Below are positions 10,961-18,904 of a DNA stretch of 64,000 nt, in pieces (the stretch's first letter is position 1; each line of letters opens with the position of its first letter). This stretch comes from a virus (Duplodnaviria > Caudoviricetes), in the IMG/VR virus record IMGVR_UViG_3300037067_010289, positions 1 through 64,000 of that record. One strand, 5' to 3'. The notes beneath the pieces are model-generated. The model saw only the letters and a list, made by a program, of their open reading frames with translations, had not been told where the DNA came from and did not search any database. The translations under genes and the position numbers were made by a program.

Positions 10961-13900
10961 ATGGCGCTTTTACCAGAACCTCCGAGCAATGTGCACATGC
11001 CTGTTGAGCCGAAAGAGGCTAAGCATGTACTGGCTACAGGTACGTGGACTGACGAAGCCGCCCTAAAAATCGTTCTACAAGACACTAATCGTGCTGAGAA
11101 CTTTGAGTCGACTAAGAGCTGGGTCATGGGTTGGGTTCAGGCGTCGACGCTATACCAGAGTCCTTGGACCTCAAGATTTTGGGAAGGCACGCAAAGCGAA
11201 CGCGCCAATGTTCCTCTTTTCACGGTAGCCACCCACGTTAACTCGTTGACGCCTCAAATCATGAAGGGGCTCTTTTATGACGAACCTCCTTTCATGATTC
11301 AGAATCGTCCAGGCACCAAGATATCAGCGGCGCGAGCAGCAGGTGCGATACTTGATTATCAACTTGAAGACGCGGACTTCCGCGAAAATTTACGCTTAGG
11401 CGTGATGAACGCCCTTCTATTTGGTACTACGATTTGGAAGTGGGGCTGGCAGGAGTACACGCGAGAGCGCGTGACGTATCGTCGTAAAACTAGCGGGTTG
11501 AAAATTCCCGATGGCATCACGGGTGAAGAAACTGTCATTGAGAACAATGATGACGACAATATTGAAGAAGAGGTTGTTGAAGAAGAAATTAGCCGCCCAT
11601 TCTTCGATCATATCGTAAACTTGCGGCACGTACTGGTTGATCCAGGGTTAAGTGTTCCGGACATTACCAAAGCTCGCTATGTCGTTCATCGTATGTACAT
11701 GACGTTCGATGAACTGGATAAGCTGCGCGAGCGTCCTGGTATAAAGTTGCCTTCGAAGGAAGAATTATTGATGCTATTCTTTCCTCCTACGGAGGAAGCA
11801 AAACCTGCGATTGCGGAAATCTCGATCCGTAATCCCCTCTGGGATGCACGTGCAGAACCTCGGTATGAAAACACCAGTGATGATCCGTTCGCAAAACCGT
11901 TAGAAGTGCTGGAACGTTGGGATGCTGAACGAGTTATCATGGTGCTCCAGCAAAAGCTGGTTATCCTTAACGAAAAAAACCCTTACGGAAAAATTCCGTT
12001 TTTCTCGGTTGGCTGGTGGGATGTTCCGGAAGCGTTTTGGGGAATGGGCCTTGGGAAGGCACAGCCGCTAGACGCTAAAATTCTTACTCCTTTGGGCTGG
12101 AAACAAATGGGGGATATTAAACCCGATGATTTAGTTATGGGCTCTGATGGAAAACCTCATAAGGTTTTGGAAGTTTTCCCCCAAGGAGAAAAAGAGGTTT
12201 TTAAGGTAACCTTTAGCGATGGGGCGACTACAGAATGCTGTAAAGAACATCTTTGGCAGATTGAAAGCGCATTGAGCAAACGTCCTTTGCGCCGAGGTTG
12301 GAAAACCAAGGTATTTCAACTTCAAGATTTTAAAGATGCATTGAAAACAAAAACAGGGGCTAACAAGTATTTTATTCCTATTACAGAGCCTATTGCGTTT
12401 TCAAAACAAGAACTACCGATCCATCCTTACTTATTGGGAATTCTCATTGGAGATGGAAATCTAACTACCGATACGCCACGATTTTCTAGTGCTGATGCTG
12501 AAATTGTTGAAGCAGTTCAAAAATTACTTCCCAAAGGAATGCAAATTGTAGGTGTTCCTAACCGGCGTTATGATTATAAAATAACATCAGTAGATCATAG
12601 GTGTAATACGGTTTTAAGAATTGTCAAAGAGTTGGGGCTTAACTGCAAAGCAGAGCACAAGTTTATTCCCGATATTTATAAGTTTTCTTCTATCGAACAA
12701 CGTAAAGAAATTTTGGCTGGATTGCTTGATAGCGACGGTACCGCTGGAAAAAATGGAGCCGCAAGCTTTTCTAGTTCGTCGGAACAGTTGTGCGATGACG
12801 TTCAATTTTTAGTTGAATCGTTAGGCGGAATAGCAAAAAAGTTTATTAAGCCTATCCCTGCACGAGGTAATTTTCCAGCTTATAGCCTTTCTATAGGCTT
12901 GGTATTTAATCCATTCAAACTTACTAGAAAAATAGAGCGATACAAACCACGAACAAAGTATATGCCTTCTCGTGGTTTTAGTGCTGTTGAAGCAGTGGGA
13001 ACTAAACCGTGCCAGTGTATTCTGGTTGATACACCGGACCATCTTTATTTAACAGATCACTGCATTGTTACACACAATACCGTAGGTTCTGACCAGCGGT
13101 TACAGCAGGGCGTGACTAATACGTGGCTTGACCAGCTAGCGCTGAATCTTAATGGCGTGTACACGCGAGTGCGCGGTAAGAGCGTTCCTACGCAGAGTAT
13201 CCGCGTATCCCCAGGCAAGATCATCGATGTGGACTCTAAGGATGACTTGAATCCTCTGCAAAGGTCGAATCCGGTTCCGGAAGCGTTACAAGCCTTGGAG
13301 CTTTCTGAGCGTCGAGCAGAGTCGGTATCGGGTGCTAACGAGTTTTCGACCCAAGGTGTTGCAGGAGCCAGCGGCCACTCGAATTTGGCGCGTACTGCGT
13401 CAGGCGCGAATTTACTAGCCGCAGGGTCTGGATCGCGTATCGAAGATTTTGTAGATAAGCTTGCGAATCAAGTTATTCTGCCTTTCTTGTATGAGGCGCA
13501 TGACCTGAACTGCAAGTTGCTCTCGCTGTCGTCGGTGAAGCATATTCTTAGTGATGAGTTGGAGCACGAATTTATCACCGAGAAACAGGGCGACATACTA
13601 GACATTGTTAACAGTCGTGTTAAGTTTTCAATCTTGGCTGGGGCTAAGCTGTCTTCTCGCCGCACCATGACGCAGGGCTTGCCGATGCTGATCCAGTTTT
13701 TGCAGGCTCAGCCTATTGTTTCGGCGCTTGCTATCGAGAAAAAGAAAGTTAGCGTTGAAGAACTGATTCGCATGTTCTTCGAGATTGCGGATTGGAAGAA
13801 TTACAACGACGTGATCGTGGAGATGACGCCGGAAGACGAACAGCGCTGGAAGGCTTCGCAGCCTGGGGCAGCAGTTCAGCAGCAACTCGCCGCTAAGGCG

Positions 13901-14059
13901 CAATTGCAACAGCAATCGTTTGAACAAAAACAGCAGCTGACTGACCAAGAGAATATTGCCCGAGCTGCACGCGAAGTTCTGCGGCAGGGTTTTGAAAAAG
14001 CCTCGGAGCCCTTGATGGTGGGCGGTGAGCCTGGAGGAAAAGCACTTGGGTCTGAATAG
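10961..14059 (+). CDS. portal protein (intein-containing; ~692 aa after splicing)
   Basis: Follows terL; NPYGKIPF, ARTASG and Gln-rich C-terminus typical of podovirus portals. Confidence 0.85.
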   Translation: MALLPEPPSNVHMPVEPKEAKHVLATGTWTDEAALKIVLQDTNRAENFESTKSWVMGWVQASTLYQSPWTSRFWEGTQSERANVPLFTVATHVNSLTPQIMKGLFYDEPPFMIQNRPGTKISAARAAGAILDYQLEDADFRENLRLGVMNALLFGTTIWKWGWQEYTRERVTYRRKTSGLKIPDGITGEETVIENNDDDNIEEEVVEEEISRPFFDHIVNLRHVLVDPGLSVPDITKARYVVHRMYMTFDELDKLRERPGIKLPSKEELLMLFFPPTEEAKPAIAEISIRNPLWDARAEPRYENTSDDPFAKPLEVLERWDAERVIMVLQQKLVILNEKNPYGKIPFFSVGWWDVPEAFWGMGLGKAQPLDAKILTPLGWKQMGDIKPDDLVMGSDGKPHKVLEVFPQGEKEVFKVTFSDGATTECCKEHLWQIESALSKRPLRRGWKTKVFQLQDFKDALKTKTGANKYFIPITEPIAFSKQELPIHPYLLGILIGDGNLTTDTPRFSSADAEIVEAVQKLLPKGMQIVGVPNRRYDYKITSVDHRCNTVLRIVKELGLNCKAEHKFIPDIYKFSSIEQRKEILAGLLDSDGTAGKNGAASFSSSSEQLCDDVQFLVESLGGIAKKFIKPIPARGNFPAYSLSIGLVFNPFKLTRKIERYKPRTKYMPSRGFSAVEAVGTKPCQCILVDTPDHLYLTDHCIVTHNTVGSDQRLQQGVTNTWLDQLALNLNGVYTRVRGKSVPTQSIRVSPGKIIDVDSKDDLNPLQRSNPVPEALQALELSERRAESVSGANEFSTQGVAGASGHSNLARTASGANLLAAGSGSRIEDFVDKLANQVILPFLYEAHDLNCKLLSLSSVKHILSDELEHEFITEKQGDILDIVNSRVKFSILAGAKLSSRRTMTQGLPMLIQFLQAQPIVSALAIEKKKVSVEELIRMFFEIADWKNYNDVIVEMTPEDEQRWKASQPGAAVQQQLAAKAQLQQQSFEQKQQLTDQENIARAAREVLRQGFEKASEPLMVGGEPGGKALGSE
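12059..13078 (+). mobile_element. Ala-start class 3 intein (340 aa) with LAGLIDADG endonuclease in portal
   Basis: GK|AQPLDAKILTP...EHLW...LGILIGDG...LAGLLDSDG...CQCILV...VTHN|T. Confidence 0.85.
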
Positions 14060-15794: not shown

Positions 15795-18011
15795 ATGAGC
15801 TATTCTCCTGCAAGTATTCTTACGTCGGGATCGCTGCCCAACCTCGTGGCTATCTACTATGAGCGGTCGGCAATTCCCAACCTGTAAATTGCCTTTGGGT
15901 TGGCTACATAAACGTTCTGAAAAATAGGAAGGCACAGACCCCGTTTATGTCGATGACTGACTTGTTTGGTCATCGTAAAAATCTGACTATATCCGTTAAT
16001 ATCTTAGGTTTTTTGTGGTATAGTAATAGTAAAAGAAAATCTAAGACAAGACGGAGCGAAGATTCTCATGAAAGACAACGATAAAACAAATTGGGCGTAT
16101 TTAGCTGGGTTGCTCGACGGAGAAGGTTGTTTTACGATAACAGGTACGTGGAAGAATCGTAAAGGTATTTGGCGCACGAAAACAGGGCCAAACACGTACT
16201 TTCACATCAACCTTATTATTAGTTTGTATAACACTGATCTTAAGGTTATGAAATGGTTAGTAGACCATTTCGGTGGTGTGTATTATGTTCATCATCCTTC
16301 TAAAAAACCGAGTCACAAAATAGGGTATTCGTGGCATCCAAAAGGTGCCAAGAATAAAGAGCTTCTTCTTTTGGGAATTTTACCGTATCTGGTAATCAAA
16401 AGAGAACAGGCGAAACTTTCTCTTGAATATATCCGGTTGGACGGGAAGGCTTGTCAAGAAAAACGGTTAGAACTGAGAGAAAAGATTCAAACCCTTAATG
16501 GACACGGCATGGGAAAACGCCTAACGACTAATATGTCAGACGGCCCTTCGGGGTTGAAGATAGAGTCTGGGCTTAGTGGCGACACTAAGAGTGCTCTTGA
16601 GGTGACTCAAGCTGTGGCCAGAACCACAGAGCTTTTGCCGCAAGTTAGTGAAAGCGTAGCCTAAACACAACTGAAACAGAAACCGTTGCCTTTGCGTTCT
16701 GGGAACCAAATTCAATTTTTCACCTACAGTTTGCTTTCCGGCAATACCGCGCAAGCAGCTGAAGGAACCGTGGGTTCGCCCATCGCGGAATCTTCGACCA
16801 AGATTATCGCAACCGTTGGGCAGTACGCGGATTACATTAACAGTTCGGACCTGAGTATGGATGTGGCAATCGACGACCCGTCGTTGCTGCAAAACCTCTC
16901 TACCGAACTCAACTATCGTTTGGCGTTGACGCTGAACTCTCTGGTTCAGATCACGGCAGACGCGGCCCAGGGCGTCGATGGTTCGGTGACGATTACCTTG
17001 GCTGATGGTTCTTATCTGACGGCGAATAACATTCGTTCGGCGTGCCAGCAACTGGCGGGTATCAATGCTCGTCCGTTGACCGGCGACGGCTACTACGGTG
17101 GGATTATCCATCCGTTCGTAGTCCGCGACGTGCTGAATGATACGTCGTTCAACGGCTTGACCGATATCTTGAAGCGGTCGGCTGACGGTCAAGAAAAACT
17201 GCTTGCACCGGTGCCCAACGAGGATACGATCACGTTTGGCGGCGTGAAATTCAAGCAGACAACCACTACTCCGACGACAACCATTTCCGGCAACACTTAC
17301 TACAACACGTATTTGTTTGCTGACGATGCGCTGTTTTCGGTTTTCCTTGGGAAGAACCCTCAAACTGGTGAGAAGAACTACCGTCTTCTTATCCAGGAGG
17401 CACCAGCTCAAGGCAGCGTAGCCGATCCGGCTCGCCAAATCGGTGGATACAGCGACCTGTCCACTGTAGACCTTATGTAGCATGAGGGGTCAGCTACAAC
17501 GTTGTATTTAACGGCGTTGTCTAAAGTTCTCCTGATTGACTCGAACCCTGAGACGGCAACGAGGCGGAACCCGAAAGGGACCGTGAGAGACTGAGCGGAG
17601 AACCCCGAAAGGGATGCAACAGTCCGTCCTTGCGCTAAATGAAGTGCAAGAGGCTGGCAGAAATGACCAGCCCCGCCGCAAGGCGAGTAACACCGAGTAA
17701 ATACACCAACACACTGCGTAATTAATCCGGGGCGCAGTTGAATTGTCATGGTAATCCGCCCGGTTCTACAATGACAATTCGGAGACTTAACAGATTGCGG
17801 GTCTCCTTAAACTCTCTCTGATTGACTTGAACGCTGAAATGCCAACAAGGGGCAAGCCGAAAGGTAGCCTGAACGACTAAGCGAGAGAGCAGCGAAAGCT
17901 GATGCGATAGTCTGCACTGCAAGAAATAGTAACTTGCAGAGGCTGGCAGAAATGACCAGCCCCGCCGTAAGGCGAGTAACAAACGGCCAATCCGAAACGT
18001 CCTCAAGCTAG
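15795..18011 (+). CDS. major capsid protein (N4-gp56-like), 7 exons: join(15795..15883,15928..15958,16674..17448,17487..17502,17698..17719,17759..17787,17987..18011), 328 aa
   Basis: Joined exons total 987 nt with no internal stop: MSYSPAS...AIPNLKAQTPFMSMTKQKPLPLRSGNQIQFF...DPARQIGGWVSYNVKYTNTLRPGSTMTIRRLQSETSSS*; every 5' exon ends in U and every intron ends in G. Confidence 0.85.
15884..15927 (+). other. core-less group I-like mini-intron A (44 nt)
   Basis: P1 CCAACCU/GGGUUGG with U.G; P10 UGCCUUU/GAAGGCA; terminal G; in-frame TAA if retained. Confidence 0.75.
16016..16024 (+). promoter_or_regulatory. possible extended -10 promoter for the intron-encoded endonuclease
   Basis: TG-G-TATAGT about 45 nt upstream of the LAGLIDADG start, in an AT-rich loop of the intron. 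Confidence 0.4.
16068..16664 (+). CDS. single-motif LAGLIDADG homing endonuclease (intron-encoded)
   Basis: WAYLAGLLDGEG and LPYLVIKREQA motifs. Confidence 0.9.
   Translation: MKDNDKTNWAYLAGLLDGEGCFTITGTWKNRKGIWRTKTGPNTYFHINLIISLYNTDLKVMKWLVDHFGGVYYVHHPSKKPSHKIGYSWHPKGAKNKELLLLGILPYLVIKREQAKLSLEYIRLDGKACQEKRLELREKIQTLNGHGMGKRLTTNMSDGPSGLKIESGLSGDTKSALEVTQAVARTTELLPQVSESVA
17449..17486 (+). other. core-less group I-like mini-intron C (38 nt)
   Basis: P1 GGUGGAU/GUCCACU with U.G; P10 GACCU/GGGUC; terminal G; removal creates a Trp codon (U|GG). Confidence 0.75.
17503..17697 (+). ncRNA. compact ORF-less group I intron D (195 nt)
   Basis: P1 ACAACGU/GCGUUGU, P10 UGUAUUUA/UAAAUACA, P3 GUUCUCC/GGAGAAC, P7 GACUG/CAGUC, GNRA hairpins, terminal G. 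Confidence 0.9.
17720..17758 (+). other. core-less group I-like mini-intron E (39 nt)
   Basis: P1 ACUGCGU/GCGCAGU with U.G; P10 CCGGG/CCCGG; terminal G; in-frame TAA if retained. Confidence 0.75.
17788..17986 (+). ncRNA. compact ORF-less group I intron F (199 nt)
   Basis: P1 GGAGACU/GGUCUCC, P10 GAUUG/CAAUC, P3 CUCUCUC/GAGAGAG, P7 GACUA/UAGUC, terminal G. Confidence 0.9.
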
Positions 18012-18036: not shown

Positions 18037-18109
18037 AGAATGAGGGCAGTCTGGTTTGGGGTGGTGCCTCCACACCGCCCCAAATCAGCAAAACTCATGG
18101 AGGTGGGTT

Positions 18110-18904
18110 TTGTATCGCTTATACTTAATAACAAATAGCGTTAATCAAAAAGTTTATATAGGCCAAACGGTTAGAAGTTTAAAAGCACGATGGAGGTCGC
18201 ATCTAAGTGCTTCCAAAGAGGCTAGAGTAAAAGATGTCTACTTTTATCGCGCTATTAACAAATATGGGCCAGCAGCTTTTACTATGGAAGAACTGGCTCA
18301 AACTGAAAGTAAAGTAGAAATTGATAGGCTAGAAAAATTTTGGATTGGTTTTTGCTTGTCCTTTCAAAAAGACAAAGGCTATAACACGACCTTTGGCGGC
18401 GAAGGTGGGAGACAAACCCCCGAGGTTCGTCGAAAAATTGGAGAAGCATCGAAACGACTTTGGCAAGACCCTGATTTTCGAAAAAGAAGTTGTCAAACAC
18501 GAAAAGGCTTGCTTGTTGGGGCGCGAAACCCCATGTTTGGCAAGAGTTCTTTTAAAGGTAAAAAGCATACGGACCTAACTAAACTTAAGTTAAGTCTTAT
18601 TAAAAAAGAACAGTTTTCTGACCCTAGCTTTAAACTAAAAATGACTTTGGCCAGCACAGGTAAGCACCACACAGCAGCGGGGCGAGCTAATATTTCTCGT
18701 GGGCTGCAAGGAAACCAATATCGTAAAGGCATACCCCACTCGGAAGAAGTAAAAGAACGAATTCGTAATTCAATGAAAGCTGCGTGGGTTCTTAGAAAGA
18801 ATAAAAAGTTTAATTCTGCCCAAGAGTTGTCCGAAACCGGATTGGGGAAAGACAAAAACTTAGCAGAATCTATGGATGCACCGATTACCCTTGCCGGGGT
18901 TTGA
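18110..18904 (+). CDS. GIY-YIG homing endonuclease with NUMOD3-like repeats (free-standing)
   Basis: LYLITNSVNQKVYIGQT, GYN-x-T-x-GG, NPMFGK, KHT and PHSEE repeats; TTG start after GGAGG. Confidence 0.85.
   Translation: MYRLYLITNSVNQKVYIGQTVRSLKARWRSHLSASKEARVKDVYFYRAINKYGPAAFTMEELAQTESKVEIDRLEKFWIGFCLSFQKDKGYNTTFGGEGGRQTPEVRRKIGEASKRLWQDPDFRKRSCQTRKGLLVGARNPMFGKSSFKGKKHTDLTKLKLSLIKKEQFSDPSFKLKMTLASTGKHHTAAGRANISRGLQGNQYRKGIPHSEEVKERIRNSMKAAWVLRKNKKFNSAQELSETGLGKDKNLAESMDAPITLAGV

What the first reader, a model, noticed from the sequence alone, without database searches (positions are those of the whole stretch)
17449..17502. Mini-intron C (38 nt) plus a 16-nt micro-exon rebuilds a Trp codon
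Seen: removing 17449-17486 turns DPARQIGG-YSDLSTVDLM* into DPARQIGG-WVSYNV. TGTAGC (17476-17481) pairs with GCTACA (17493-17498), overlapping the P1 strand of intron D by 3 nt. Inference: the two helices compete, which could impose an order of splicing (C before D).
Basis: partly seen in the sequence, partly recalled or inferred. Interest (0 to 1): 0.85.

Follow-up and report, generated by a model that had tools for sequence, protein, structure and literature searches.

The report
Core-less mini-intron in phage capsid gene
[quoted passage not shown] It recurs with compensating mutations in a dozen related phages, always just upstream of a full intron, so it most likely borrows that neighbour's ribozyme, and I found no published description of such an intron.

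Summary
Window 15795-18011 is an N4-gp56-type major capsid gene. It reads as a full 328-aa protein only if six segments are removed. One of them is exactly 17449-17486 (38 nt), whose removal rebuilds the Trp codon that all 98 homologues reading through this point have after IGG.

Segment C follows a U and ends in G. It carries a textbook group I internal guide: a P1 helix with a U.G pair at the splice site, and directly beside it a P10 helix with the 16-nt micro-exon. It has no room for a catalytic core. Twelve distinct relatives (38-64 nt) keep P1 and P10 through compensatory changes opposite synonymous codon changes.

In an unbiased set of capsid loci, the mini at this site occurs only where a full group I intron lies 16-62 nt downstream (7/7 against 0/41). 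Every mini in a complete gene has a full intron downstream. I therefore read C as a core-deleted, helper-dependent group I intron, probably spliced by the core of intron D.

The TGTAGC/GCTACA helix is real and is part of a general pairing between the mini's tail and the micro-exon. That it forces C to splice before D is untested. No RNA data were available. This scan has noted the same kind of element on other DNA, and I found no publication describing it.

The parts
15795..18011 (+). Major capsid gene (N4-gp56 family). It has 7 exons, 3 full group I introns (B, D, F) and 3 core-less minis (A, C, E).
   Evidence: Spliced alignment to P0002 gives 328/328 aa with six inserts, all with T before and G at the end. 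PHROG major head protein. Homologues.
17442..17448 (+). 5'-exon strand of P1 of mini-intron C. It ends in U17448, the 5' splice site.
   Evidence: Pairs with 17459-17465. U.G is kept in 12/12 relatives and P1 is 100% paired, with compensatory changes at two pairs.
17449..17486 (+). Mini-intron C, 38 nt. It consists of a P1 loop, a P10 guide, a P1 guide, a tail and a terminal G.
   Evidence: No Rfam match and no room for P3-P9.
17454..17458 (+). P10 guide of C. It pairs with the first 5 nt of the micro-exon.
   Evidence: P10 is 93% paired across 12 relatives. Pair 35-92 of alignment A1 is GC in 7 and UA in 4.
17459..17465 (+). P1 guide (internal guide sequence) of C.
17476..17481 (+). Tail strand of the tail-to-micro-exon helix (TGTAGC).
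   Evidence: Present in the minimum-energy fold. A G-C to A-U change occurs in L152. It corresponds to the conserved 3'-terminal AGTAAC motif of the full intron family.
17486..17486 (+). Terminal G of C (candidate omega-G), the 3' splice site.
   Evidence: G in all 12 relatives. Nearly all inserts in the family end in G.
17487..17502 (+). 16-nt micro-exon coding (W)VSYNV. 17487-17491 is the P10 strand, 17493-17498 the tail-helix strand, and 17496-17502 the 5' strand of D's P1.
   Evidence: Synonymous variation in relatives.
17503..17697 (+). Intron D, 195 nt. A full small group I intron with no P2 and the proposed catalytic helper. P10 guide 17503-17510, P1 guide 17514-17520.
   Evidence: A family alignment of 63 introns shows covarying P3, P9 and P9.1. 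P7 also varies in step: most have GACTA/TAGTC, D has GACTG/CAGTC. Rfam's group I model does not reach E<=1.
15884..15927 (+). Mini-intron A (44 nt), 31 nt upstream of intron B (15959-16673, with a LAGLIDADG ORF).
   Evidence: The P1+P10 guide arose in 3 of 300,000 shuffles. Three-hairpin fold.
17720..17758 (+). Mini-intron E (39 nt), 29 nt upstream of intron F (17788-17986).
   Evidence: The guide arose in 7 of 300,000 shuffles. A 12-bp tail-to-exon helix was reached by 0 of 200 shuffles.

Best explanation
Segment 17449-17486 is a non-autonomous group I intron. It is what remains of a full intron of the D/F family, once inserted at the IGG|W site, after its catalytic core was deleted.

It keeps only the substrate parts. 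These are a P1 hairpin that presents the 5' splice site as a U.G pair, an adjacent P10 guide that aligns the 16-nt micro-exon, a short tail that pairs with that micro-exon so that the 3' splice site sits in a small loop, and a terminal G.

It is removed from the capsid mRNA by the normal two-step guanosine-initiated group I reaction. The active site, including the G-binding P7 and the P3-P9 core, is lent by a full group I intron on the same transcript. The most likely lender is intron D, which starts 16 nt downstream.

Shown here:
- the boundaries of C
- the restoration of the conserved Trp
- the P1 and P10 helices and their covariation
- the lack of a core
- the strict association with a downstream full intron, and its polarity

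Inferred: that removal happens at the RNA level, that it uses group I chemistry, and that D is the catalyst. The order of the two splicing events is open.
For: 1. Exact boundaries and a 328/328-aa product. W is universal in 98 homologues.

2. A U before the insert, a G at its end, and P1 with U.G directly beside P10. This arose in 54 of 300,000 shuffles for C, 3 of 300,000 for A and 7 of 300,000 for E.

3. Twelve distinct relatives of C, 38-64 nt long. P1 is paired in 100% of cells and the U.G in 12/12. Pair 9-41 occurs as AU, CG, GC and UG, tracking the synonymous third base of a Gly codon. P10 pair 35-92 is GC in 7 and UA in 4. The covariation score was reached by 0 of 500 shuffles, and slid controls pair only 30-45%.

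4. Dependence on a full intron. Among 60 unique IMG/VR capsid loci that cover the region, the mini at residue 299 is present in 7 of 19 loci with a full intron at residues 300-322, and in 0 of 41 without one (Fisher p = 1.3e-4). All 18 minis in complete genes have a full intron 16-182 nt downstream, and 9 of them have no upstream intron at all. Full introns without minis are common.

5. Across 105 unique D/F-type introns in many genes, the mini signature occurs at 2.3 per kb in the 150 nt upstream. In far-upstream and downstream controls it occurs at 0.33-0.36 per kb.

6. Origin. L095 and L122 carry a full D/F-type intron at exactly GGTGGAT| with the same guide. Mini tails begin with the family's P1-to-P3 linker plus the start of P3, and end with the family's 3'-terminal motif.

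7. All three units in the window fold as mini P1 hairpin, tail/micro-exon hairpin and helper P1 hairpin, with z-scores of -2.1 to -3.0.

8. In L001 and L002 the tail is complementary to D's own guide.
Against: There is no RNA evidence. No RNA run holds this sequence, and only metagenome DNA contigs could be laid on it.

No natural case of one group I core splicing a second, separate intron is known to me, so the central step is inference.

D's own P1 is joined to its core by only a few nucleotides and should dock first. How C gets access to the core is unexplained.

Some minis lie 151-182 nt from the next full intron (L220, L236, L238). This strains a simple model in which the mini is tethered to a close neighbour.

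D/F-type introns are not recognised by Rfam's group I model. Their identity as group I ribozymes rests on my structural reading and on covariation.
Confidence: 0.6

Rival explanations
1. C is helper-dependent, but the helper is not specifically D. C would be spliced in trans by any free or still-bound D/F-type intron RNA in the infected cell. Examples are excised D or F, or D held on the ligated exons by its P1/P10 pairing after its own splicing.
For: The capsid transcript carries two near-identical cores, D and F. Some minis lie 151-182 nt from the nearest full intron and have no significant tail helix next to it. From my own knowledge, group I cores accept P1 duplexes supplied in trans (work on sunY and Tetrahymena).
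Against: The polarity is strict: minis are always upstream of a full intron and never only downstream of one, and 9 of 18 have no upstream intron. Tail helices abut the helper's P1 in most short-exon cases. Pure trans action predicts no such polarity or proximity.
Confidence: 0.15
2. C is a minimal autonomous ribozyme. Together with exon sequence it would splice itself, as was reported for the 63-75 nt degenerate group I introns of Phialophora SSU rRNA.
For: Harris and Rogers 2011 (PMC3160393) describe 56-81 nt introns with P1, P7, P10 and a pairing between the intron middle and the 3' exon. They state that the 67-nt PaSSU intron splices in vitro. C shares P1, P10 and the intron-to-3'-exon pairing.
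Against: C is 38 nt. P1, P10 and the tail helix use almost all of it, and no P7-like G-binding element is visible. An autonomous element would not need a full intron downstream, yet the association is 7/7 against 0/41.
Confidence: 0.07
3. C is removed by proteins. An endonuclease would cut at both junctions and an RNA ligase would reseal the exons. The internal guide would serve only as a splint holding the two exon ends together.
For: The continuous P10+P1 guide bridges both exon ends like a splint. Phages commonly encode RNA ligases (my own knowledge; I did not look for one in this window).
Against: The invariant U.G at the 5' junction and G at the 3' end are specific to group I chemistry and are not needed for a splint. 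The strict link to a downstream full intron is unexplained. No such pathway is known for bacterial mRNAs.
Confidence: 0.08
4. C stays in the mRNA and is skipped by the ribosome. This would be translational bypassing of the T4 gene 60 type, taking off at GGA 17445-17447 and landing at GGG 17486-17488.
For: The size (38 nt), an in-frame stop inside the gap and Gly codons at both ends in the window resemble a bypass gap.
Against: The product would lack the Trp that all 98 homologues have. The codon after take-off is Tyr, not a stop. In L115 and L174 the take-off codon is GGT or GGC while the landing codon is GGG. Minis A and E have no matched codons. Bypassing does not predict guide-to-exon covariation.
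Confidence: 0.02
5. The gene is a decaying pseudogene, or the insert is an assembly artefact, and nothing removes it.
For: Only metagenome data exist. No single contig from the independent runs spans the whole mini.
Against: Runs from four studies hold the stretch. Independent contigs match both junctions of C without differences. Twelve diverged relatives keep the insert with compensatory changes, while the exons stay under protein-level constraint.
Confidence: 0.03

Closest known systems
Canonical phage group I introns (T4 td/nrdB/sunY; Staphylococcus phage Twort orf142 with three introns; mycobacteriophage Cluster J capsid and tail introns, PMC3706429)
   Same: The 5' exon ends in U, paired to G in P1. 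The internal guide forms P1 and P10. The intron ends in G. It sits in an essential, highly expressed phage gene alongside other introns and homing endonucleases.
   Different: These are all self-sufficient ribozymes of about 200-1000 nt with a P3-P9 core. C is 38 nt and has none.
Degenerate small group I introns of fungal SSU rDNA (Phialophora PaSSU 63-75 nt, Porpidia, Arthonia; Harris and Rogers 2011, PMC3160393)
   Same: Tiny introns that keep P1, P10 and a helix between the intron and the 3' exon. They are thought to derive from full introns by deletion.
   Different: These lie in nuclear rRNA, are 56-81 nt, have a proposed P7, and are reported to self-splice. No neighbouring helper intron is described. 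C is shorter, lies in a phage protein-coding gene, lacks P7, and is strictly linked to a downstream full intron.
Fragmented (trans-spliced) group I introns of organelle cox1 genes, and engineered trans-acting or multi-subunit group I ribozymes (recalled from my own knowledge)
   Same: The catalytic core and the splice-site helices are not one continuous intron. The core recognises a P1 duplex supplied from elsewhere.
   Different: In those cases the pieces are halves of one intron, or laboratory constructs. Here a complete, independently splicing intron would serve a second, separate intron.
Translational bypass gaps (T4 gene 60, 50 nt; Magnusiomyces mitochondrial byps, 27-55 nt; recalled from my own knowledge)
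   Same: Short stop-containing inserts in an otherwise intact ORF.
   Different: There is no consistent matching of take-off and landing codons. A codon is rebuilt across the junction. The helices between the insert and both exons covary.
P(-1) hairpin of Tetrahymena pre-rRNA, which competes with P1
   Same: An alternative helix that involves the 5'-exon strand of P1 and can delay splicing.
   Different: Here the competitor is the tail of another intron, the overlap is only 3 nt, and its effect is untested.

Membership tests
Group I intron (self-splicing ribozyme) | The 5' splice site follows a U that forms a U.G wobble pair within P1, made with an internal guide sequence | tested here: met
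   U17448.G17459. P1 is 17442-17448 with 17459-17465. U.G in 12/12 relatives and P1 100% paired, with two covarying pairs.
Group I intron (self-splicing ribozyme) | P10 forms between the 3' exon and the guide bases directly 5' of the P1 strand | tested here: met
   17487-17491 with 17454-17458. 93% paired, with GC/UA covariation.
Group I intron (self-splicing ribozyme) | The intron ends in G (omega-G) | tested here: met
   G17486. G in all 12 relatives and in nearly all inserts of the family.
Group I intron (self-splicing ribozyme) | Catalytic core P3-P9 with the guanosine-binding site in P7 | tested here: not met
   Only 38 nt, all taken up by the P1 loop, the guides, a 21-nt tail and the terminal G. 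No Rfam match at E<=1. No P3 or P7 equivalents appear in the alignment to the D/F family.
Group I intron (self-splicing ribozyme) | Guanosine-initiated self-splicing of the RNA | not testable with these tools
   No RNA runs were listed. This needs in vitro transcription and splicing.
Degenerate small fungal group I introns (PaSSU type) | P1, P10 and a helix between the intron middle and the 3' exon | tested here: met
   Description of the fungal introns in PMC3160393.
Degenerate small fungal group I introns (PaSSU type) | A retained P7 and autonomous splicing without a neighbouring intron | tested here: not met
   No P7 is visible. The mini is found only with a downstream full intron: 7/7 against 0/41.
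Programmed translational bypass (T4 gene 60 type) | Matched take-off and landing codons, with a stop directly after take-off | tested here: not met
   The codon after GGA is TAC. Relatives have GGT or GGC take-off against GGG landing. A and E have no matched codons.
Programmed translational bypass (T4 gene 60 type) | The product equals the homologues without any codon being rebuilt across the gap | tested here: not met
   A hop would delete the Trp present in 98/98 homologues.
Archaeal-type bulge-helix-bulge intron | Two 3-nt bulges separated by a 4-bp helix at the junctions | not tested
   I did not search for this formally. The folds show no such motif.

The most novel reading that the evidence does not exclude
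Mini-intron C belongs to a widespread, undescribed class of 'satellite' group I introns in phage structural genes. These would be core-deleted introns of 30-65 nt that survive in essential genes by using the ribozyme of the full intron downstream. Their tails co-evolve with the micro-exon, and in some lineages with the helper's own guide. That pairing would hold them next to the helper and make the helper wait until the satellite is out.
Probability: 0.5. Interest if true: 0.9.

Novelty: new variant of a known kind. Interest (0 to 1): 0.8.

Why it matters
If a group I core routinely splices a second, core-less intron, three things follow.

1. Introns can be non-autonomous parasites of other introns. 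That would be a natural step from self-splicing elements towards a shared, trans-acting splicing catalyst, an idea usually discussed only for group II introns and the spliceosome.

2. The lower size limit for a functional group I-type intron falls to about 30-40 nt.

3. Phage gene callers will systematically truncate capsid, portal and other genes at such inserts. Here the database protein for this gene is a 236-aa fragment. Short stop-containing gaps may also be misread as frameshifts, bypass sites or pseudogenes.

The system is small, about 270 nt for C, the micro-exon and D together, so it can be tested directly in vitro.

Tried and rejected
- RNA evidence: the look-up of sequencing runs listed no RNA holder, only landfill and groundwater DNA runs.
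- Laying contigs of four DNA runs gave short pieces that match both junctions of C. None bridges the whole mini, and there is no joint that skips it.
- Rfam at E<=1 found only a weak group I hit in intron B and nothing for C, D or F.
- A DNA pattern for mini-C's P1 plus the start of the micro-exon gave only chance matches in IMG/VR. Relatives were found instead through D's P1 pattern and through truncated proteins.
- Pfam found nothing for the capsid exon.
- Four literature searches found no description of helper-dependent or core-less phage introns. The library is incomplete.
- The Cluster J mycobacteriophage paper and the Bastillevirinae intron paper describe only full introns.
- Translational bypass, pseudogene, and protein-only splicing were considered and ranked low, for the reasons given under the rival explanations.
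- The 6-bp tail helix of C is not significant on its own.
Full report
WHAT IS THERE. Window 15795-18011 (+) encodes a major capsid protein of the N4-gp56 family (PHROG major head protein; homologues named so by their sources). Intron-less homologues are 327-328 aa and end ...DPARQIGGWVSYNVKYTNTLRPGS.M.IRRLQSETSSS.

In the window the long ORF 16686-17480 stops 11 codons after QIGG. I wrote a protein-to-DNA aligner that allows introns in any phase. With P0002 it aligns all 328 residues if six segments are skipped:
- A: 15884-15927 (44 nt)
- B: 15959-16673 (715 nt, with a LAGLIDADG ORF)
- C: 17449-17486 (38 nt, phase 1, inside the Trp codon)
- D: 17503-17697 (195 nt)
- E: 17720-17758 (39 nt)
- F: 17788-17986 (199 nt)

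Every segment follows a T and ends in G. The GIY-YIG gene at 18056-18904 lies after the capsid stop codon.

Only T17448 joined to G17487-88 can rebuild TGG, and the 16 nt at 17487-17502 then code VSYNV up to intron D.

CHECK OF THE REFUTATION TEST. Of the homologues that read through this point, 98 have W. The exceptions are five proteins whose ORF runs into an insert at this same position and two artefacts of my regular expression.

ANATOMY OF C.
- Exon 17442-17448 pairs with 17459-17465, with U17448 opposite G17459. This is a group I P1.
- The five bases directly 5' of that guide (17454-17458) pair with the first five bases of the micro-exon (17487-17491). This is a P10.
- The insert ends in G17486.
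- About 21 nt remain, and they contain TGTAGC (17476-17481), complementary to GCTACA (17493-17498) in the micro-exon.
- There is no room for P3-P9, and Rfam finds nothing.

A P1 with U.G directly beside a 5-bp P10 arose in 54 of 300,000 shuffles of C's own letters, 3 of 300,000 for A and 7 of 300,000 for E.

Each of the three units folds as three adjacent hairpins: the mini's P1, the tail with the micro-exon (3' splice site in the loop), and the P1 of the full intron. The z-scores are -2.1 to -3.0.

RELATIVES AND COVARIATION. I fetched the contigs behind proteins truncated at QIGG|Y. I also ran a DNA pattern for D's P1. Together these gave 12 distinct versions of mini-C, 38-64 nt long.
- Eight have the 16-nt micro-exon followed by D.
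- In L174, L175, L176 and L213 the next full intron sits 38 nt downstream, at the site that mini-E occupies in the window.
- In L177 it is 62 nt downstream.

On alignment A1, P1 is paired in 100% of cells and the U.G is invariant.
- The pair opposite the third base of the second Gly codon occurs as AU (9), CG, GC and UG.
- Another P1 pair is UA (11) or CG (1).
- P10 is 93% paired, with GC (7) against UA (4) opposite the third base of the Val codon.
- The covariation score was reached by 0 of 500 shuffles, and slid controls pair only 30-45%.

So the guide tracks silent changes in the exons, which is the signature of a functional RNA helix.

The tail helix also tracks the exon. L152 has GTAAC opposite GTTAC. 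L174 and L177 have 8-10 bp helices with their longer micro-exons.

DEPENDENCE ON A FULL INTRON. D occurs without C in many contigs, for example L041, L151 and L160-L164. I then took an unbiased protein-based sample of 80 IMG/VR capsid loci and aligned all of them. This gene family is crowded with inserts, up to seven per gene, and almost all follow T and end in G.

Among the unique loci covering the region, the mini at residue 299 is present in 7 of 19 loci that have a full intron at residues 300-322, and in 0 of 41 that do not (Fisher p = 1.3e-4).

Over all sites (residues 30, 33, 41, 93, 187, 270, 299, 310, 312), all 18 minis in complete genes have a full intron 16-182 nt downstream. Nine of them have no upstream intron at all. 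The two minis without a downstream intron sit at truncated contig ends.

The core motif of D/F occurs in more than 117 IMG/VR contigs and in many genes. Around 105 unique copies, the mini signature (U.G P1 beside P10, then a G) is about seven times denser in the 150 nt upstream than in control regions. Clear examples with their own compensatory changes occur in other genes, such as L081/L054 and L049/L088/L146.

ORIGIN. L095 and L122, from a different capsid family with the motif ...DPTGTIGG|W, carry a full D/F-type intron at exactly this site with the same guide. Mini-C tails begin with the family's P1-to-P3 linker plus the first bases of P3. They end with a variant of the family's nearly invariant 3' motif before the last G. 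Mini-C therefore looks like such an intron with its core deleted.

IS D A RIBOZYME? An alignment of 63 full introns from this gene family shows strongly covarying P3, P9 and P9.1. P7 also changes in step: most have GACTA/TAGTC and D has GACTG/CAGTC. Together with D's P1 (U.G), its 8-bp P10 and its terminal G, I accept D as a small group I intron without P2, although Rfam's model does not score it.

MECHANISM. The most economical reading is that C is a group I substrate without an enzyme, and that a full intron on the same transcript supplies the enzyme. D is the most likely supplier.

What I cannot decide is the order of splicing.
- Minis A and E show no overlap with their helpers' P1.
- On the other hand, in L001 and L002 the tail contains 6-7 nt that are complementary to D's own guide. 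This could hold D's P1 open until C has left.
- It is also possible that D splices first and stays bound to the ligated exons through P1 and P10 while acting on C.

ALTERNATIVES. A ribosomal hop would delete the universal Trp, lacks consistent codon matching and does not predict covariation. An autonomous mini-ribozyme, as claimed for the fungal 67-nt intron (PMC3160393), does not explain the strict need for a downstream full intron. Protein-mediated cutting and ligation does not explain the U.G and terminal G rules. A pseudogene or an assembly artefact is excluded by the recurrence and by independent runs.

NOVELTY. Four full-text searches found no description of core-less, helper-dependent introns in phages. 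The nearest published thing is the fungal degenerate introns.

These are unverified leads and not independent support. One note (e1-3409714) states that its mini is spliced out of the RNA, which I could not check.

LIMITS. All evidence is comparative and structural. No RNA was available.

Noticed in passing
L227 (= L150), at residue 295 of the capsid gene, 27 nt upstream of its D-type intron: A 10-nt insert (TTATAATTTG) between ...DPAR and QIGGW. It follows a T and ends in G, and it breaks the frame with a stop. It is far too short to hold its own guide, so it may be an ultra-short relic, a frameshifted allele or an error. L255 has a similar 14-nt insert at residue 267.
   Followed up: no
L178-L257 (IMG/VR capsid loci); window 15795-18011: This one capsid family carries inserts at 20 or more different sites and up to seven per gene. 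Almost all follow a T and end in G. About half of the unique loci have none. This is an unusually intron-saturated phage gene.
   Followed up: partly
L001 3284-3340 and L002 1175-1216: The tails of these mini-C versions contain a 6-7 nt copy of the 5'-exon strand of intron D. It is complementary to D's internal guide and could act as a decoy for the helper's P1.
   Followed up: partly
L095 and L122 (IMG/VR): A full D/F-type intron sits at exactly the IGG|W position of a different capsid family, with the same P1 guide as mini-C. This is the likely ancestral state of the mini.
   Followed up: partly
L081, L054, L137, L140; L042, L069, L147; L033, L049, L088, L046, L146; L039, L091; L045; L060; L110, L118, L123; L113; L131: The same architecture of a mini, a micro-exon and a full intron occurs in other phage genes. 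These have their own compensatory changes in P1, P10 and the tail helix.
   Followed up: partly
window 10961-14059: The portal gene (SU10-type) contains an intein with LAGLIDADG and Hint domains. The head module is dense with selfish elements.
   Followed up: no
window 17649-17692 and 17938-17981: D and F share a near-identical 3' domain. Contigs of run X3 jump between the two copies there, which is either an assembly ambiguity or recombinant variants.
   Followed up: no
L220, L221, L236, L237 (residue 41) and L238 (residue 30): These minis lie at the sites of the window's B and A, but 151-182 nt upstream of the next full intron, which is 660-680 nt long. They are the longest mini-to-helper distances seen.
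   Followed up: no
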